A stretch of 64,000 nt of DNA from Parcubacteria group bacterium GW2011_GWA2_40_14 (GTDB taxonomy: Bacteria; Patescibacteriota; Minisyncoccia; Phycocordibacterales; DATDWN01): positions 3,507-67,506 of the forward strand of contig LBYF01000001.1 in the NCBI GenBank assembly GCA_000996025.1. The letters are read 5' to 3'. Both the position numbers and the translations under genes were made by a program. Under the pieces are notes generated by a model that did not search any database, had not been told where the DNA came from, and was given only the letters and a program-made list of their open reading frames with translations. Shown piece by piece: positions 17,679 to 62,363 of the stretch. Position 1 is the stretch's first letter. Each line of letters starts with the position of its first letter.

Positions 17679-17722
17679 ACACATACGTTAACTTCTTGCT
17701 ATAGCAAGAAGTTAACGTATGT
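17679..17722. repeat. Perfect 19-bp-stem palindrome with GCTATAGC centre (family-7-like) after recJ
   Basis: The sequence is cacatacgttaacttcttgctatagcaagaagttaacgtatgtg. Confidence 0.6.
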
Positions 17723-17768
17723 GGGTCTAAGAAGTTATTTATTGTGGATTGCCGTGTATAATGATGAA

Positions 17769-18449: not shown

Positions 18450-18523
18450 TTTGCATATGTATTCAAGAAACTCAATTATAATTTTGGCACAGTATATTGT
18501 ACCAAAATAGAAATATTAAACTC

Positions 18524-19999
18524 ATGATTATTTCAAGTATTTTTGGTTTTATTTCAGGTATTGGCGTGGGTTCATTTTTTTATATCAATCTCGGAATTTT
18601 TCTTGCCCTCGGGTTTTTGATAATAATATTTTTTATATATAAAAATTTTGTTCCTGAGGAAAATCGTCGTGTTTTAGTTTTTATTTCCATTTTTCTTCTA
18701 GGAACACTCTGTGGATTAGCTAGAGTAACATTTTCCAATCTTTATACCACATCGCAACTCGGTTCATTTGTAGAACAGAAAATTTCTACGGAGGGTATTA
18801 TCGTCGGTGAGCCGGATGTTAGAGAAAACAATACAAAATTGACCGTGCGTTTGTCGCAAGTTAATTTTTTAAATAGCACTACTTCTGTTTCAGAGAAAAT
18901 ATTGGTAACCACATCTCTGTATCCAGAATTTCATTATGGCGACAAAGTTGCAATAGTTTTAACTTTGAAAGAGCCAAAAAATATAGATTCTGGCGATGGA
19001 CATGTCTTTGATTATAAAGGGTATCTGAAAGTCAGGGGAATTTGGTATACAGCCAGTTTTGTCAAAATAAGCCTTATTTCTAGGGGCCATGGCAGTTTGA
19101 TTAAAACGGGATTATTCAAAATAAAGCACGCATTTACGGCTTCATTAAATAGAGTATTGCCCGAGCCAGAATCCAGTCTCATGGCAGGATTACTTCTCGG
19201 TACAAAACAATCTTTGGGCAAAGATTTACTTCTGGAATTTCAGAAGACGGGTGTGTCACATATAATTGTGCTTTCTGGTTACAATATTGCCATTGTGGCA
19301 ACAAGCATTATGTCTTTTTTGAGTTTCTTGCCGAAAAGTTTTTCTTTCAGTTTTGGAATTGGCAGTATTATTTTGTTTACTATTCTCTCTGGAGGAAGCG
19401 CTTCAGCATGGCGAGCGGCTATTATGGTCATGGCCGCTCTTGTAGCCAAAAGATATAACCGCGATTACAAAGCCAGTCGCGTACTCGGCTTTGCTATCGT
19501 GCTTATGCTTGCTCCCAACCCACTCCTTCTTATTTTTGACCCATCATTTCAACTTTCAGTGTTGGCTACTATCGGAATTATTTTTGTTTCACCTCTTATT
19601 TTCCCATATTTTAAATGGGTAACAAAAAAATGGGAGTTCCGAGAAATTATTTCCACCACCATCGCCACTCAATTAACCGTCCTGCCATTTCTTATTTACA
19701 ATACAGGTCTTTTCTCTCTTGTTTCTCTGCCGGTGAACATTTTAATTCTTGCTACCATACCCACAACAATGTTTCTCGGTTTTATTACCGGTATCGCTGG
19801 TTTAATTTCACTTTATCTATCTTTCATCCCGGCATTTTTTGCTTATATTCTCCTCTGGTATCAGCTCACAGTCGTCCACATTGGAGCTAGCCTACCTTTC
19901 GGCTCAATTCTTCTCGCCACATTTTCTCCACTCGTTTTAATTTTCACCTACTTAATAATTTTCCTATTTTTGTATTTTCTAAAAAAGCAAACTATTTAA
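18524..19999 (+). CDS. comEC: ComEC/Rec2 competence membrane channel protein (N-terminal and transmembrane part only)
   Basis: It is polytopic with a ComEC-like core; no beta-lactamase domain lies in the same ORF. The track ORF begins at a TTG at 18497. Confidence 0.7.
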   Translation: MIISSIFGFISGIGVGSFFYINLGIFLALGFLIIIFFIYKNFVPEENRRVLVFISIFLLGTLCGLARVTFSNLYTTSQLGSFVEQKISTEGIIVGEPDVRENNTKLTVRLSQVNFLNSTTSVSEKILVTTSLYPEFHYGDKVAIVLTLKEPKNIDSGDGHVFDYKGYLKVRGIWYTASFVKISLISRGHGSLIKTGLFKIKHAFTASLNRVLPEPESSLMAGLLLGTKQSLGKDLLLEFQKTGVSHIIVLSGYNIAIVATSIMSFLSFLPKSFSFSFGIGSIILFTILSGGSASAWRAAIMVMAALVAKRYNRDYKASRVLGFAIVLMLAPNPLLLIFDPSFQLSVLATIGIIFVSPLIFPYFKWVTKKWEFREIISTTIATQLTVLPFLIYNTGLFSLVSLPVNILILATIPTTMFLGFITGIAGLISLYLSFIPAFFAYILLWYQLTVVHIGASLPFGSILLATFSPLVLIFTYLIIFLFLYFLKKQTI

Positions 20000-20441
20000 A
20001 GTATTTGCTGAAGTAGTCTTTACAGTACTCAAAACTATATTGAAATCCAGAATGTAATGGTTCTGGTAAGTTATCTATTTTAAACCAACCAAGCTCTTCA
20101 ATTTTATGAGGCTCATTATTTTTTACTTCATCTCAATTTACTTTGATGATAAACGGCATTGCAATCCAGTGAGTTTTTACACCGTTGAACATTCTAAAAA
20201 TATCATGTGCGGGAAGGCGCTCTGAAATCTCTCCTTTGCACCCGTATTCTTCCCGCACTTCTTGGAGAACATTTTCCTCGACTAAAAGATTAAATTCTAG
20301 TTTTCCTCCACCCGGATCCCATTTTCCTTGCTCATCCCTACACTGCAGACCTCTTTTGTGCATGAATAGATTTCCTTCTCCATCGTGGCAATAGAATGGA
20401 GTTGTGATACCAACATAGTCGTATCCAATTTTCATATCCAT
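19992..20441 (-). pseudogene. NUDIX hydrolase interrupted by an in-frame TGA at 20133-20135
   Basis: The upstream part has the Nudix box GGGKLEFNLLVEENVLQEVREEYG. After the TGA the same frame continues for 46 codons with NUDIX-like sequence (DEVKNNEPHKIEELGWFKIDNLPEPLHSGF...) to a TAG at 19992. Confidence 0.55.
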
Positions 20442-20443
20442 AC

Positions 20444-21046
20444 TTATTTTGCTACACTGTTAAAATTCTCCTCAACCTTCTTCCAATTCAGATTTGCAAA
20501 AAAATCTTCAACGTATTGTTTCTTGCCAGATGGTTGGTAGTCGGCGACAAAGGCGTGTTCCCACATATCTAAAGCGAGTATCGGAGTGCATCCAACGAGC
20601 TGGCCGAGCTGATGGTCTTCAATGTAGGCGTTCAGTAGTCTGTGTTCTTTTGTATCTAGGTAGAGCATTGCCCAGCCTACTCCGCGAGTCATGGCGATTG
20701 ACTTGAACCTCGCAAGCCAAGTGTCAAATGAACCCCATAGATAGACAATTGATTTATATAATTCTCCGTCTGGTGAAATGGGAGATGGTCCGTCGGACAG
20801 AGAATCAAAATAAACTTCATGATTTCGCATACCGTCATATTCAAATCCAAACCTTCTCTGTGTTTCGTTGATAATGATAATATATGTATCCGTCTGGCCG
20901 GATTTTGTGAACTCATCGATTTTTTCCAAAGCAAAATTGGTATGTTTGACATATCCCGCATAGAGCTTCAAATGTTCCTCAATTGTCTTGCTCGAAACTC
21001 CTTTTAATTCGGGGATATTAAATTTTTTCTCTTCAAATTGCATCAT
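20444..21046 (-). CDS. sodA: Fe/Mn superoxide dismutase
   Basis: The DMWEHAF motif and the N-terminal helical hairpin H-x-x-H are present. Confidence 0.9.
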   Translation of the reverse strand: MMQFEEKKFNIPELKGVSSKTIEEHLKLYAGYVKHTNFALEKIDEFTKSGQTDTYIIIINETQRRFGFEYDGMRNHEVYFDSLSDGPSPISPDGELYKSIVYLWGSFDTWLARFKSIAMTRGVGWAMLYLDTKEHRLLNAYIEDHQLGQLVGCTPILALDMWEHAFVADYQPSGKKQYVEDFFANLNWKKVEENFNSVAK

Positions 21047-21094
21047 AGTAGTTTTTAAATTTTAAATTAAAAATTTTCCTATATACTATAGCAT

Positions 21095-22006
21095 ATGAGG
21101 CAAATTTTTCTGAATGTTCGGACTTATCTACGATGGTATGCTCTCATTTTTCTAGTATTTTTTAGCGTCATTTTGTGGTTTGCTGTAATCCACGAAGACA
21201 GAAATGGGATTTTGACTTTTGCTGTTCTGGATGTTGGCCAAGGCGATGCCCTTTTTATTGAATCTCCCACGGGTACGCAGGTTTTGGTGGATGGCGGTCC
21301 CGGCAAAACCCTTATGCGAGAAATAACCGCTGTCATGCCATGGTATGACAGACATATAGATATGTTGGTTGTAACCAATCCGGACAAAGACCACTACGAG
21401 GGATTCATACCTCTTACGGGCAAATATTCTATTGATGTAGTGGTTGAACCGGGAACAGTATCGCTAACTTCGGAGTATGCAGTGTTGGAAAAAGAAATTG
21501 CTGTGAAGAAAATAACCAAAATTTTGGCCAGACGAGGACAAATAATAGACCTCGGTGGAGGAGCGTATTTGCAAATCCTTTTTCCTGACCGTGACGTTTC
21601 CGGATTATCCTCAAATAACGGCTCAATTGTTACGCGTTTAGTTTATGGCCATACATCCGTTATCTTACAGGGCGATTCTACTTCAAATATAGAGAATTAT
21701 CTAGTTACACTAGGGGAGGGTAACTTAAAAAGCACCATACTCAAAGCTGGTCACCACGGCTCGCGGACAAGTACATCGGAAGAATATGTTACAGCGGTTT
21801 CACCGCTGTGGACGGTTATTTCTTCTGGGATAAATAATAGTTACGGACATCCGCACAAAGAAACGTTGGACACTTTGAATAAATTAAAAATCCCCACGCT
21901 CGATACTTGTAATAATGGCAGAATCATTTTTGAATCGGATGGCAAAAGTTTTATTCTGAAAAATAAAAATCCTATTCTCGCGATATCTGGATGTGTTAAG
22001 AAATAA
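21095..22006 (+). CDS. Membrane-anchored metallo-beta-lactamase-fold protein resembling the ComEC C-terminal domain
   Basis: There is an N-terminal TM and a LDVGQGDA...H.GSRTS MBL-type motif set, as in the ComEC nuclease domain. Confidence 0.65.
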   Translation: MRQIFLNVRTYLRWYALIFLVFFSVILWFAVIHEDRNGILTFAVLDVGQGDALFIESPTGTQVLVDGGPGKTLMREITAVMPWYDRHIDMLVVTNPDKDHYEGFIPLTGKYSIDVVVEPGTVSLTSEYAVLEKEIAVKKITKILARRGQIIDLGGGAYLQILFPDRDVSGLSSNNGSIVTRLVYGHTSVILQGDSTSNIENYLVTLGEGNLKSTILKAGHHGSRTSTSEEYVTAVSPLWTVISSGINNSYGHPHKETLDTLNKLKIPTLDTCNNGRIIFESDGKSFILKNKNPILAISGCVKK

Positions 22007-22023
22007 AATTTTCATATAATAAA

Positions 22024-22072
22024 ATCATACACGTTCTTTGCGATCGCAAAGAACGTGTATGATTTTATTATG
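22024..22072. terminator. Perfect 22-bp-stem palindrome centred on GCGATCGC between the convergent MBL gene and rpmB
   Basis: The sequence is aaaatcatacacgttctttgcgatcgcaaagaacgtgtatgatttt. Confidence 0.6.
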
Positions 22073-22089
22073 AGTAAAACGTGGGAGTT

Positions 22090-47098: not shown

Positions 47099-47845
47099 TT
47101 GCAAGTTGTGGTTTCCGACATTCTTATACAAGACATAAATGACCAGAAAGAGTTTTTCTGCTATACTTATTTAAGTATGTTTATATGGAATCTATTAGTT
47201 AAAAATTTTCCTGAATACTGTGAATCAGTAGCTGGCTTTTGGACGGTTGAACCACTGAACGCACTAACTAACTTCGCGTTTTTTATCGGAGCATATTATT
47301 TATTGAAATATATCCGTGTTAATAATTTAAAAAACCGCTTAAGCATTTTCTTGACAGGATTAATGGTAGTTATGGGATTAGGCAGTCTATTGTGGCATTC
47401 GTATAGATCAGAAATAACGATGTTGCTTGATACCTTGCCGATTTACATTTTCTTTATTTTAGCCCTTTATCTTTTTGTACAGGTTCTTACAAAAAATAAA
47501 AAACTTACCATTGTTATTTTGGCTTTATTAGGATTAATATATTATTTAATTTTTACTTATATTCCTGGTCTAAATATTTTTAGTGGTTCACTAAAGTATA
47601 TTTTTATTCTTATAGTTTTAGTAGCATTAAGTTTTTTTATAAGAAAGAAGTATGGATATGATTATAACTTTTTAACACCACTAGGCATCTTTTTAGTGGC
47701 GATAATGTTAAGGACGATTGATATTTTTATGTGTCCATTTTTCCCATTCGGAACTCATTTTATATGGCATATTTTGATTGCAATAGCTATGTATTTCGGT
47801 TCAACTCTAATTTTGCGTTTAAATGCTAAAATGAATCAAGTCTGA
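47099..47845 (+). CDS. Polytopic membrane protein (7-TM, possibly ceramidase-like hydrolase)
   Basis: This is a hydrophobic ORF with conserved His residues (WHSYRSE, THFIWHIL). The family assignment is uncertain. Confidence 0.35.
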   Translation: MQVVVSDILIQDINDQKEFFCYTYLSMFIWNLLVKNFPEYCESVAGFWTVEPLNALTNFAFFIGAYYLLKYIRVNNLKNRLSIFLTGLMVVMGLGSLLWHSYRSEITMLLDTLPIYIFFILALYLFVQVLTKNKKLTIVILALLGLIYYLIFTYIPGLNIFSGSLKYIFILIVLVALSFFIRKKYGYDYNFLTPLGIFLVAIMLRTIDIFMCPFFPFGTHFIWHILIAIAMYFGSTLILRLNAKMNQV

Positions 47846-47863
47846 TTAACAATTTCAATTCTC

Positions 47864-48184
47864 GTGTTTTTGGTGTATAATAAAGAAATGAAATTAAGTA
47901 TTGAGGAAATAAAAGAAAAAATAACTCCGATTTTGGAGAAGTACGGCGTGACTTACGCCGGTGTTTTCGGTAGTGTGGCGCGCGGTGATGCTCGTCCGGA
48001 CAGTGACGTGGATATTCTCGTTAAAATCCGTAATCCCATTAGCATATTCGTCTTTTTTAAGATGAATGATGAATTGGAAGAAATATTGGGACGAAAGGTG
48101 GATTTAGTGACGGAAAACTCTCTTATTCGTTATTTCAAGCCATATGTGATGCTTGATTTAAAGCCACTCTATGAAGTCAGATAA
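47864..48184 (+). CDS. Nucleotidyltransferase antitoxin MntA (minimal NTase)
   Basis: GVFGSVARGDARPDSDVDILV is the pol-beta-type NTase signature. Confidence 0.8.
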   Translation: MFLVYNKEMKLSIEEIKEKITPILEKYGVTYAGVFGSVARGDARPDSDVDILVKIRNPISIFVFFKMNDELEEILGRKVDLVTENSLIRYFKPYVMLDLKPLYEVR

Positions 48185-48488
48185 AGTATACTGCGAATAT
48201 ATTATCAGTTGTATAGATAAAGTTGGCCGTTTTACTTCTGGAATGAAACGAGAGGATTTTCTTGCAAGTGAGTTAGTGCAAAGTGCAGTAATCTTGCAAC
48301 TCCTTCTTATTGGTGAATTGTCAAAAAATTTATCGTCTGAATTTAAGAAAAGTACTGATTTGCCTTGGACACAAATTTCCGGTTTCCGAAATAGAGCAAT
48401 CCATAATTATTATGAACTTGAGCTGGAATTCGTTTGGTTTGCAGTTCAAAATGATTTGTTTCCTATTAAAGAAGCTGTCTCCAAATAA
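48171..48488 (+). CDS. HepT (DUF86) HEPN-family toxin
   Basis: RNRAIHNY matches the R-x4-H-x-Y HEPN motif. The gene overlaps the NTase gene by 14 nt. Confidence 0.8.
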   Translation: MKSDKVYCEYIISCIDKVGRFTSGMKREDFLASELVQSAVILQLLLIGELSKNLSSEFKKSTDLPWTQISGFRNRAIHNYYELELEFVWFAVQNDLFPIKEAVSK

Positions 48489-59908: not shown

Positions 59909-60295
59909 ATGAAAAAAGATTTTGATGATTGGAACAAAAAGAAAAAGAAAATTCATAAAAATGATAATGCTCCATTTTGTCACGAAAGGGAGCTCTGGTG
60001 GGGTGCTCTCGGTGTGAACATAGGTTCTGAACAAGATGGTTCTGGTAAAGAAGATTCTCGTCCAATACTTGTACTGAAAGGTTTGAGTGTCCAAACATGC
60101 GTCGTTATACCTCTTACTACTTCTACAAGTATTCATACACTGCGACCATCAGTCGGAATTGTGGAAGATGAAGAAGCACATGCTTTGATGTCACAAATTA
60201 GAGTCATTGATACAAAACGACTAATCCGCAAAATAGGTTATCTTGATAAAAAGATATTTCAACAGATACGAAAAATCGCCAAAGACATGCTTTAG
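59909..60295 (+). CDS. MazF/PemK-family toxin (no adjacent antitoxin gene recognised)
   Basis: WWGALGVNIGSEQDGSGKEDSRPILVL...VVIPLTTS parallels the MazF/Kid fold motifs. Confidence 0.65.
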   Translation: MKKDFDDWNKKKKKIHKNDNAPFCHERELWWGALGVNIGSEQDGSGKEDSRPILVLKGLSVQTCVVIPLTTSTSIHTLRPSVGIVEDEEAHALMSQIRVIDTKRLIRKIGYLDKKIFQQIRKIAKDML

Positions 60296-60383
60296 CGATT
60301 TTTCTCCCTCTTATTTTTTCTGCCGTTTGCCTCTTACGAGGCGAGGCCGAAGCCACTTGTACTGTAAGTATAGCAAGTCTCTA

Positions 60384-61340
60384 ATGAATGTCAAATTAAA
60401 TATAATAAAACGAATGAAAGAAAATCTACAACTTAATGAAGAAATTGTAAAAATTATTCAAAAATTAAAACTAGAACCAGTTCGAATGTCTTTTGCAGTT
60501 ATAAATTTACATACTCCAGAGCCAGAAATTGCTGGATATCACATGGATGAGTTTATATATCCCGCAAGTATATATAAAGTTTTTGTGGGAGCAGAAATTT
60601 TGCGGAAAGTTTATGAAAAAATATTGAACCTATCGGATATAGTAGAAATCAAATCTCCAAATGATGTTGATAGGGATATTTGCCTTTTTCCTAAAACTAC
60701 TAGCAAAGACCACAGACCACCCTTGAAAGCTGGCGATAAAATGACCATTGATTATCTCCTTGATCTTGTATTCAGTCGAAGTGACAATACTGCTTCTAAT
60801 ACGCTCATAGATATTGCAGGTAGAGAAGATATCAATAGCCATATTATTTTACCAAATGGATGGAAAGGAAGTGAAGTTACTAGAAAATTTCTTGACCGAT
60901 TAAAAGAAGAAAAAGAATATAGAGTTTCGCGTATTACCGTATCAAATGCTCGGTATCTGGCAGAATTTTTTTATAAAATAGAAAAAGGAGAATTAGTTAG
61001 TAAATGGGTCTCAGAGAAATTAAAAGCTTACATGCAAAATTGGAATCGTGAAGGAAGAAGTGGATTAAACCTTCCTGAGTTTGTTAATTACTATAGAAAA
61101 GGCGGATGGCTTGAAATAAATGGATACAAATATAACTTTTTAAGCGCGATAAAAAACGTCACCAAGAAAGGATATGCGGTCAACAAATGGAGTAATGACG
61201 CTGGAGTAGTCACTGGTCAAAATTCACATTATGCTCTGGCACTTTTATCACTTACTAAGTCAGCGTGGCCATGGACAGAGTTTCCTTTGAAATCATTTGC
61301 AAAAGAGATACACATCTTGATGGAAAAATTAGATAGATAA
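60384..61340 (+). CDS. Class A beta-lactamase-related serine hydrolase
   Basis: S-x-x-K (ASIYK), SDN (SRSDN) and a KGG triad-like motif are present. The start was moved to the internal ATG. Confidence 0.6.
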   Translation: MNVKLNIIKRMKENLQLNEEIVKIIQKLKLEPVRMSFAVINLHTPEPEIAGYHMDEFIYPASIYKVFVGAEILRKVYEKILNLSDIVEIKSPNDVDRDICLFPKTTSKDHRPPLKAGDKMTIDYLLDLVFSRSDNTASNTLIDIAGREDINSHIILPNGWKGSEVTRKFLDRLKEEKEYRVSRITVSNARYLAEFFYKIEKGELVSKWVSEKLKAYMQNWNREGRSGLNLPEFVNYYRKGGWLEINGYKYNFLSAIKNVTKKGYAVNKWSNDAGVVTGQNSHYALALLSLTKSAWPWTEFPLKSFAKEIHILMEKLDR

Positions 61341-61919: not shown

Positions 61920-62363
61920 TCAACGATCTTTAAAATCTCTTCCTATCTCTCTTTCCGTATCTCGTTTTTTCAATGTCTCGCGTTTATCAAACTTTTTCTT
62001 ACCTTTTGCAGTGGCAATATCAATCTTCACTTTCGGTCCTTTATTATATACCGAAAGAGGGACAATTGTCAACCTGTTTTTTTGGTCTATGGATACGAGC
62101 TCGGATATCTCTTTTTTTGTAAGCAATAGTTTGCGATTGCGGTAGGGGTCATAATCTTTCGGCGTATTTGCCGGCTGATATGGTGGAACGAACATCCCAA
62201 CTACGTATGCTTCACCACCTCGTATGGTAATATGAGCACCCTCCAATGAGCCCTGACCAGCTTTTAGGGATTTTACTTCAAAACCAAAAAGCTCTATGCC
62301 AGCAACATAGGTATCCAATATCTCGTAATTAAACCTAGCTTTTTTATTGGTTATGAGTGACAT
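61920..62363 (-). CDS. smpB: SsrA-binding protein SmpB
   Basis: ARFNYEILDTYVAGIEL.G.EVKSL is the SmpB signature. Confidence 0.9.
   Translation of the reverse strand: MSLITNKKARFNYEILDTYVAGIELFGFEVKSLKAGQGSLEGAHITIRGGEAYVVGMFVPPYQPANTPKDYDPYRNRKLLLTKKEISELVSIDQKNRLTIVPLSVYNKGPKVKIDIATAKGKKKFDKRETLKKRDTEREIGRDFKDR

What the first reader, a model, noticed from the sequence alone, without database searches (positions are those of the whole stretch)
19992..20441. NUDIX hydrolase gene with an in-frame TGA. The reading frame continues with conserved-looking sequence for 46 more codons
The minus-strand ORF 20133-20441 contains the Nudix box and stops at a TGA. The same frame then reads DEVKNNEPHKIEELGWFKIDNLPEPLHSGFQYSFEYCKDYFSKYFK to a TAG at 19992, giving a normal-length NUDIX of about 149 aa. 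Elsewhere TGA is a genuine stop (tpiA, pilC, a pseudopilin and pyrF), and long ORFs have no internal TGA. A genome-wide UGA reassignment is therefore unlikely. The options are a recent nonsense mutation (pseudogene), a sequencing error, programmed readthrough, or selenocysteine.
Basis: seen in the sequence. Interest (0 to 1): 0.55.

Follow-up and report, generated by a model that had tools for sequence, protein, structure and literature searches.

The report
NUDIX gene broken by recent stop
A small, highly conserved NUDIX hydrolase gene in a groundwater Parcubacteria (CPR) genome carries one real premature TGA stop at a position where its closest relatives have arginine, which is most simply a young nonsense mutation and not recoding, so the finding is ordinary.

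Summary
On the minus strand, a 102-codon ORF (20441-20133) ends at TGA, and the same frame runs 46 more codons to TAG at 19992. The joined 149-aa product matches full-length homologs of 146-152 aa at 65-87% identity from end to end.

The TGA is not a sequencing error. All 14 same-species contigs I fetched carry it, and the exact truncated protein is indexed on at least 59 contigs (GenBank KKR32248.1, Parcubacteria GW2011_GWF2_39_8b). No intact allele closer than 87% identity turned up.

- **Not a code change:** the TIM, SmpB, PilC and PyrF genes end at TGA exactly where their Pfam profiles end.
- **Not selenocysteine:** homologs have Pro, Arg or Lys at this column and never Cys, and there is no hairpin after the UGA.
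- **Not a conserved readthrough site:** none of 136 loci from other species has a stop at this position.
- **Likely origin:** the nearest relatives have Arg here, and AGA and CGA, each one mutation from TGA, are common Arg codons in this genome.

The rest of the gene is undamaged, so the lesion is young. The population is nearly clonal, so selection on the downstream part since the stop arose cannot be measured. Best reading: a recent nonsense mutation giving a young pseudogene, or a gene expressed only through basal UGA leakage. Interest is low.

The parts
20133..20441 (-). N-terminal 102 codons of the NUDIX gene plus the premature TGA. Homologs and GenBank start at the second ATG (20435, MKIGYDY...).
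   Evidence: This part holds the variant Nudix box GKLEFNLLVEENVLQEVREEYGC.
20133..20135 (-). The in-frame TGA (codon 103), followed by G.
   Evidence: The TGA is present in all 14 same-species contigs. The aligned residue is R in the nearest homologs and P in most others.
19992..20132 (-). 46 intact codons plus TAG. They encode the last beta-strand and the C-terminal helices of the Nudix fold, and they contain no in-frame ATG, GTG or TTG.
   Evidence: The structure model of the 87%-identical homolog places a strand at 112-119 and helices at 129-137 and 139-146 in this part. No conserved residue is lost.
20444..21046 (-). Fe/Mn superoxide dismutase gene immediately upstream on the same strand, 2 nt from the NUDIX start. 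It is probably in the same operon.
   Evidence: The SOD-NUDIX adjacency is shared only with the close relatives L085 and L005.
21085..21114 (-). Promoter-like site upstream of SOD (consensus match only).
18497..19999 (+). Convergent ComEC-like gene. Its last 8 nt overlap the end of the full-length NUDIX frame.

Best explanation
A single-base nonsense mutation turned an arginine codon (AGA or CGA, inferred) into TGA at codon 103 of a 149-codon NUDIX hydrolase gene. The gene belongs to a Parcubacteria/Minisyncoccia bacterium, GW2011_GWF2_39_8b or a near-identical strain. The mutation is fixed in the nearly clonal population that has been sampled. Translation normally ends at this TGA and gives a 100-102 aa fragment. 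That fragment lacks one core beta-strand, the C-terminal helices, and 11 of the family's nearly invariant residues, so it is most likely inactive (inferred). The mutation is young, because the downstream 46 codons and every conserved residue are still intact. Any full-length protein would come only from ordinary low-level UGA leakage (inferred, not shown).
For: The stop is real and fixed in the sampled population. All 14 same-species contigs carry the TGA. They come from JGI, ENA and Logan samples and were built with different assemblers. They differ from the window by 0-7 scattered SNPs per 5 kb and form at least 4 haplotypes. The exact truncated protein is indexed on at least 59 contigs and in 86 blocks, including GenBank KKR32248.1 and KKR46180.1.

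The gene is otherwise a normal member of its family. There are 357 homologs, the full-length ones are 146-152 aa, and they are 65-87% identical over 97-100% of the joined sequence. The Pfam, PDB-profile and fold matches all run across the stop.

The stop column is a variable loop position. Among loci from other species it reads P 92, R 17, K 7, with no stop in any of 136. It is R in the nearest homologs P0001, P0002, P0004, P0006 and P0007.

AGA (199) and CGA (153) are common Arg codons in this window, and each is one step from TGA.

TGA is a working stop in this genome.

This is the only interrupted gene among about 60 ORFs in the window.

Two other MAGs carry single in-frame TAA codons at other sites in the same family, so sporadic nonsense lesions do occur in it.

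Belinky et al. 2021 (PMC7918605) report that in-frame stops in bacterial genes are widespread and mostly persist only at the time scale of population polymorphism.
Against: The gene shows no other sign of decay. It has no frameshift and no second stop. Only 1 residue is rare at a conserved column (F26, itself polymorphic), which equals the family median. Nonsynonymous divergence downstream of the stop (pN 0.11-0.16 against the closest loci L085, L005, L006 and L088; up to 0.20 against L089) is no higher than between intact homologs (0.10-0.21), while synonymous sites are saturated. This pattern is equally what a gene kept functional by readthrough would show. The family is very strongly conserved across CPR phyla, so its loss might be expected to be costly. 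No intact allele was found, so the mutation is not a rare variant.
Confidence: 0.75

Rival explanations
1. The gene is still functional through UGA readthrough. A useful fraction of ribosomes would decode this UGA with a near-cognate tRNA (for example tRNA-Trp) and make the full 149-aa enzyme, with the stop tolerated or even used to lower expression.
For: The downstream 46 codons are perfectly intact and keep all conserved residues. The stop is fixed in every sampled haplotype. It sits at a variable surface-loop column where P, R, K, I and A are all tolerated, so any inserted residue would probably be acceptable. UGA is the leakiest stop codon (established knowledge). Belinky et al. argue that many bacterial in-frame stops are read through (PMC7918605). 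UGA reassignments have arisen within Patescibacteria, including a Minisyncoccia family (PMC13092985).
Against: The stop is not conserved in any of 136 loci from other species. No stable RNA structure follows it (z = 0.03 and 0.31), and there is no Rfam hit. No suppressor tRNA is visible, although the window contains no tRNA genes at all. Intactness downstream is uninformative, because strains differ by at most about 0.13% and less than one neutral change is expected in 138 nt.
Confidence: 0.15
2. Sequencing or assembly error, or a minority allele wrongly chosen as the consensus.
For: MAG consensus sequences can carry errors. Read pile-ups could not be inspected here.
Against: The identical TGA appears in 14 fetched contigs from at least 10 samples, built with several assemblers (MEGAHIT k141, SPAdes NODE, JGI, Logan), and the protein is indexed on at least 59 contigs. 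No full-length protein more than 87% identical exists among 5.8 billion clusters.
Confidence: 0.02
3. Selenocysteine insertion at the UGA.
For: UGA is the Sec codon, and the frame continues after it.
Against: The aligned column is never Cys in about 240 homologs, and it lies in a variable loop away from the Nudix box. There is no SECIS-like hairpin after the UGA and no Rfam match. No tRNA-Sec was found in the window.
Confidence: 0.01
4. Genome-wide or partial UGA reassignment (code 4 or 25, as in Gracilibacteria, Absconditabacteria or the Minisyncoccia family JAKLIH01).
For: Such reassignments exist in Patescibacteria (PMC13092985).
Against: 10 of 60 ORFs end at TGA. TIM, SmpB, PilC and PyrF end there just as their Pfam profiles end. 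Reading through those TGAs adds only 1-11 codons before the next stop. ORFs of up to 852 aa contain no TGA. The only other long in-frame extension past a TGA (47099-47845, 112 codons) is simply the next gene, read in the same frame.
Confidence: 0.01
5. A split enzyme, in which the N- and C-terminal parts are made as two polypeptides that assemble.
For: Both parts are intact.
Against: The 46 downstream codons contain no in-frame ATG, GTG or TTG and have no ribosome-binding context. No homolog is split.
Confidence: 0.01

Closest known systems
Premature-stop (nonsense) pseudogenes and transient in-frame stop polymorphisms in bacterial genes (Belinky et al. 2021, PMC7918605)
   Same: There is a single in-frame stop in an otherwise intact, conserved gene. 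The ancestral sense codon is one step away. The stop is restricted to one species-level population.
   Different: Here the stop is fixed in all sampled haplotypes, not polymorphic. No reversal or sister lineage is available to date it.
MutT/NUDX1-type single-domain NUDIX hydrolases (PDB 5gp0 and 5wy6 AtNUDX1, 4kyx, 4dyw, NUDT15 5bon)
   Same: The size is the same (about 148 aa). The model of the 87%-identical homolog has the same alpha/beta/alpha Nudix fold (pLDDT 93; TM 0.76-0.86). A PDB profile match covers residues 18-138. The ExxEE metal-binding core of the Nudix box is conserved.
   Different: Identity to any solved structure is only 26-29%. The family Nudix box has L for the canonical E7 and Q for R15. 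It has family-specific conserved Cys residues and the motifs TPFYCHDG, HKRxxxCRDE and PxPLHxGF. The substrate is unknown. No NCBIfam equivalog matches.
Bacterial selenoprotein genes (UGA plus SECIS)
   Same: An in-frame UGA with a continuing frame.
   Different: There is no SECIS hairpin, no Cys or Sec at the position in homologs, and the position is a variable loop.
UGA-reassigned Patescibacteria (code 25 in Gracilibacteria and Absconditabacteria; UGA to Trp in Minisyncoccia family JAKLIH01, PMC13092985)
   Same: The same phylum, and an in-frame UGA inside a conserved gene.
   Different: This genome uses TGA as a normal stop, and only one gene in 64 kb is affected.

Membership tests
NUDIX hydrolase superfamily (Pfam PF00293) | Domain match above Pfam's gathering score | tested here: met
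   The joined product scores 39.1 bits against a cutoff of 21.1, over residues 19-130. The N-part alone scores 22.6 bits.
NUDIX hydrolase superfamily (Pfam PF00293) | Canonical Nudix box GX5EX7REUXEEXGU | tested here: inconclusive
   The window has G-KLEFN-L-LVEENVL-Q-E-V-R-E-E-Y-G-C. The E-U-x-E-E-x-G-U part is present, but E7 is L and R15 is Q. The same variant is seen across the whole family.
NUDIX hydrolase superfamily (Pfam PF00293) | Alpha/beta/alpha Nudix fold, including the C-terminal helix | tested here: met
   This was tested on the AlphaFold model of P0001 (87% identical, pLDDT 93.1), which matches AtNUDX1, MutT and NUDT15. The strand at 112-119 and the helices at 129-146 fall after the stop, so the truncated product would lack them.
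Nonsense-mutation pseudogene | Stop codon inside the region that full-length orthologs encode, with homology continuing in frame | tested here: met
Nonsense-mutation pseudogene | Ancestral sense codon one mutation away | tested here: inconclusive
   The nearest homologs have Arg, and AGA and CGA are common here. However, DNA of the two nearest homologs (P0001, P0002) was not retrievable, and the nearest Arg homolog with DNA (L005) uses CGT.
Nonsense-mutation pseudogene | Further decay (extra stops, frameshifts, loss of conserved residues, raised dN) | tested here: not met
   None was found. If this is a pseudogene, it is therefore young.
Programmed stop-codon readthrough | Stop codon conserved at the same position in orthologs | tested here: not met
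   None of 136 loci from other species has a stop in this column.
Programmed stop-codon readthrough | Stimulatory RNA structure or motif 3' of the stop | tested here: not met
   Folding z-scores are 0.03 (71 nt) and 0.31 (241 nt). No inverted repeat and no Rfam hit were found.
Programmed stop-codon readthrough | Purifying selection on the downstream frame after the stop arose | tested here: inconclusive
   There are zero substitutions downstream among the strains, but less than one is expected at 0.13% divergence or below.
Programmed stop-codon readthrough | Full-length protein actually made | not testable with these tools
   This needs proteomics, ribosome profiling or a reporter assay.
Bacterial selenoprotein | SECIS hairpin immediately 3' of the UGA | tested here: not met
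Bacterial selenoprotein | Cys or Sec at the homologous position in relatives | tested here: not met
   The column reads P 92, R 17, K 7, I 5, A 3 and a few others. Cys never occurs.
Bacterial selenoprotein | selA, selB, selC and selD in the genome | not testable with these tools
   Only 64 kb of the genome is available. No tRNA of any kind is in the window.
UGA-reassigned genetic code (tables 4 and 25) | TGA not used as a terminator, and TGA at conserved sense positions in many genes | tested here: not met
   The TIM, SmpB, T2SSF and OMPdecase genes end at TGA at the ends of their Pfam profiles. Extensions past those TGAs are only 1-11 codons.

The most novel reading that the evidence does not exclude
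A strongly conserved CPR housekeeping NUDIX gene is kept in service behind a fixed UGA by natural near-cognate readthrough. That would be a snapshot of the 'ambiguous intermediate' stage that precedes the UGA reassignments known elsewhere in Patescibacteria, or a crude expression throttle on the gene downstream of SOD.
Probability: 0.1. Interest if true: 0.55.

Novelty: already known. Interest (0 to 1): 0.12.

Why it matters
It matters little beyond annotation. GenBank lists the 100-aa fragment as 'NUDIX hydrolase' (KKR32248.1, KKR46180.1). It would be better flagged as interrupted, because metabolic reconstructions for this Parcubacteria species may wrongly count the enzyme as present. If readthrough were shown experimentally, it would be a natural example of a fixed in-frame UGA being tolerated in a reduced CPR genome. 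That would bear on how UGA reassignments begin in this phylum.

Tried and rejected
- **Selection test:** pairwise Nei-Gojobori dN/dS for the N-part and C-part against the nearest DNA-available relatives. Synonymous sites are saturated (pS 0.6-0.9), so only pN could be compared, and it shows no acceleration downstream.
- **Strain polymorphism test:** 14 same-species contigs. The population is nearly clonal. Most apparent mismatches in L002 and L146 cluster at alignment ends, so there is no power to detect selection after the stop arose.
- **Nearest homologs:** DNA of the two closest intact homologs (P0001 at 87%, P0002 at 85%) could not be fetched because the sample files are too large. The ancestral codon is therefore inferred, not read.
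- **Other interrupted genes in the window:** the only other long in-frame extension after a TGA (47099-47845, 112 codons) is the next gene, an MNT nucleotidyltransferase with its own start.
- **P0123 (76 aa):** I suspected this cluster member marked a second lesion. It is only a contig-end or start-choice artefact, and the DNA is identical.
- **SECIS, RNA structure and Rfam:** nothing found.
- **RF2, suppressor tRNA and sel genes:** none could be looked for beyond the window. There are no tRNAs in the window, and the 365-aa ORF at 60243 is beta-lactamase-like, not a release factor.
- **SOD-NUDIX synteny as a functional clue:** it is conserved only in the closest relatives, with SOD directly upstream in 2 of 119 loci that have enough upstream DNA.

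Full report
**Observation.** The minus strand of the window carries an ORF from 20441 to 20133 (102 aa) that ends at TGA (20135-20133). The same frame continues for 46 codons (DEVKNNEPHK...DYFSKYFK) to TAG at 19994-19992. The continuation is not a chance open frame. The Pfam NUDIX score rises from 22.6 bits for the N-part to 39.1 bits for the joined product, and the match covers residues 19-130, running straight across the stop.

**Homologs.** A search of 5.8 billion protein clusters returned 357 homologs. The full-length ones are 146-152 aa and align to 97-100% of the joined 149-aa sequence at 65-87% identity. In the alignment the part after the stop carries 11 of the family's nearly invariant residues: E110, P111, K113, W119, F120, P126, L129, H130, G132, F133 and F144. 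A PDB profile search matches MutT-type NUDIX structures over residues 18-138. An AlphaFold model of the closest intact homolog (P0001, 87% identity, pLDDT 93) has a standard Nudix fold most like AtNUDX1, Rickettsia and Burkholderia MutT, and NUDT15. In that model a core beta-strand (112-119) and the C-terminal helices (129-146) lie after the position of the stop. The 100-102 aa product would therefore lack integral parts of the fold and is most likely inactive; this is inferred from the model, not measured.

**Is the TGA real?** Yes. The exact truncated protein is in GenBank (KKR32248.1 and KKR46180.1, Parcubacteria group bacterium GW2011_GWF2_39_8b). It is indexed on at least 59 contigs and in 86 blocks of the assembly collection. 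I fetched 14 same-species contigs from JGI, ENA and Logan samples built by different assemblers, and all have TGA at this codon. They differ from the window by only 0-7 scattered SNPs per 5 kb. The extra mismatches in L002 and L146 cluster at alignment ends. There is also a 6-nt indel in SOD and one rearranged neighbourhood. Together this gives at least four haplotypes of a nearly clonal population. No full-length allele closer than 87% identity exists in the protein collection. I could not tell whether the samples come from one site or several.

**What stood there before?** Across 136 loci from other species the aligned column is P (92), R (17), K (7), I, A and a few others. It is never Cys and never a stop. 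The five nearest homologs that have Arg at the column (P0001, P0002, P0004, P0006, P0007) suggest that the immediate ancestor had Arg. AGA (199 uses) and CGA (153) are common Arg codons in this window, and each is one substitution from TGA. DNA for the two nearest homologs was not retrievable, so the ancestral codon is an inference.

**Rivals excluded.**
- **Genome-wide reassignment.** 10 of 60 ORFs end at TGA. Triosephosphate isomerase (profile positions 1-244 of 245), SmpB (2-142 of 143), PilC-like T2SSF and OMP decarboxylase end at TGA where their profiles end. Reading through those TGAs adds only 1-11 codons. ORFs of up to 852 aa contain no TGA.
- **Selenocysteine.** No homolog has Cys at the column, which is a variable loop. 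The 71 nt after the UGA fold no better than shuffled sequence (z = 0.03), and there is no Rfam hit.
- **Split protein.** The 46 downstream codons contain no in-frame ATG, GTG or TTG.
- **A general habit of this genome.** The only other long in-frame extension after a TGA (47099-47845) is simply the next gene, an MNT nucleotidyltransferase paired with HepT.

**Young pseudogene or functional readthrough?** This is the one question the data cannot settle. Apart from the stop, the gene is in perfect condition. It has no frameshift and no second stop. Only one residue is rare at a conserved column (F26, itself polymorphic), which equals the family median. Nonsynonymous divergence downstream of the stop (pN 0.11-0.16 against the closest loci L085, L005, L006 and L088, and up to 0.20 against L089) equals that between intact homologs (0.10-0.21), while synonymous sites are saturated. 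So the downstream part was under purifying selection for nearly all of the time since the split from the nearest relatives. Either the stop is recent or the frame is still being translated. Within the species, less than one neutral change is expected in 138 nt, so the absence of downstream polymorphism says nothing either way.

Against programmed readthrough, the stop is unique to this species and no RNA structure follows it. Two other MAGs carry single TAA codons at other positions in the same family (L014, L029), so sporadic nonsense lesions do occur in it. Belinky et al. (PMC7918605) report that in-frame stops in bacterial genes are common, mostly short-lived, and may be partly read through. 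A 2026 NAR paper reports a UGA-to-Trp reassignment in one Minisyncoccia family (PMC13092985). That keeps a small prior for unusual UGA decoding in this phylum, but this window shows normal use of TGA as a stop.

**Verdict.** The finding is real and correctly described, but ordinary. It is a single, recent nonsense mutation (Arg to TGA, inferred) fixed in a nearly clonal Parcubacteria population, in a gene that lies 2 nt downstream of a superoxide dismutase gene and is probably co-transcribed with it. I give about 0.75 to a young pseudogene or severely down-expressed gene, and about 0.15 to readthrough that is functionally meaningful. Error, selenocysteine, recoding and a split gene together get a few percent. 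The practical consequence is an annotation correction. The only route to higher interest is experimental proof of full-length protein.

Noticed in passing
L014 (about 3160, codon after ENVL) and L029 (about 2190, codon after PKEA): Two other MAG homologs of this NUDIX family each carry one in-frame TAA at a different position. L014 has it at the Q of ENVLQEV, and L029 at the K of EVKNNEP. Sporadic nonsense lesions or MAG errors recur in this family, in 3 of about 138 species sampled.
   Followed up: partly
window 20244-20312 (-), and alignment A1: The whole family has a non-canonical Nudix box: G-x5-L where the canonical box has E, and Q-E-V-x-E-E-Y-G-C with Q in place of R. It also has three conserved Cys residues and strongly conserved motifs (TPFYCHDG, HKRxxxCRDE, PxPLHxGF). 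It is 50-87% identical across many CPR phyla. It also occurs in MAGs labelled Micrarchaeota, Nanoarchaeota or archaeon (L066, L068, L072, L074, L078). The substrate is unknown, and no NCBIfam equivalog matches.
   Followed up: partly
window 47099-48488: A ceramidase-like membrane protein (47099-47845) ends at TGA and is followed in the same frame by 112 open codons. That stretch is the next gene, an MNT-type nucleotidyltransferase (47888-48184), paired with a HepT ribonuclease (48171-48488) as a toxin-antitoxin module. The shared frame is a coincidence.
   Followed up: yes
window 17680-17723 and 22009-22078: Two intergenic palindromes have no loop between their arms. One has 22+22 nt arms at 100% complementarity and lies between recJ and the RNase H gene. 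The other has 35+35 nt arms at 91% and lies between the 303-aa ORF and the convergent L28 gene. Their function was not examined.
   Followed up: no
L086 (aligned to window 20869-20874) and L146 (upstream of window about 20978-21034): Strain-level structural variants exist in the same species. L086 has a 6-nt deletion inside the SOD gene. L146 has a different neighbourhood (HtrA-like protease and an SLT-domain protein) upstream of SOD. Both strains keep the TGA.
   Followed up: partly
window 1-64000: ARAGORN found no tRNA or tmRNA gene anywhere in the 64 kb, although SmpB (61920-62363) is present.
   Followed up: no
window 59909-61340: A MazF/PemK-like toxin ORF (59909-60295) overlaps by 53 nt the TTG start called for a beta-lactamase-family ORF (60243-61340). 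The true start of the latter is probably further downstream.
   Followed up: no
window, ORFs ending in TGA: Six of the nine other TGA-terminated ORFs have a second in-frame stop within 1-4 codons, against 14 of 37 TAA-terminated ORFs. This is a possible hint of back-up stops behind a leaky UGA, but the sample is small and the difference was not tested for significance.
   Followed up: no
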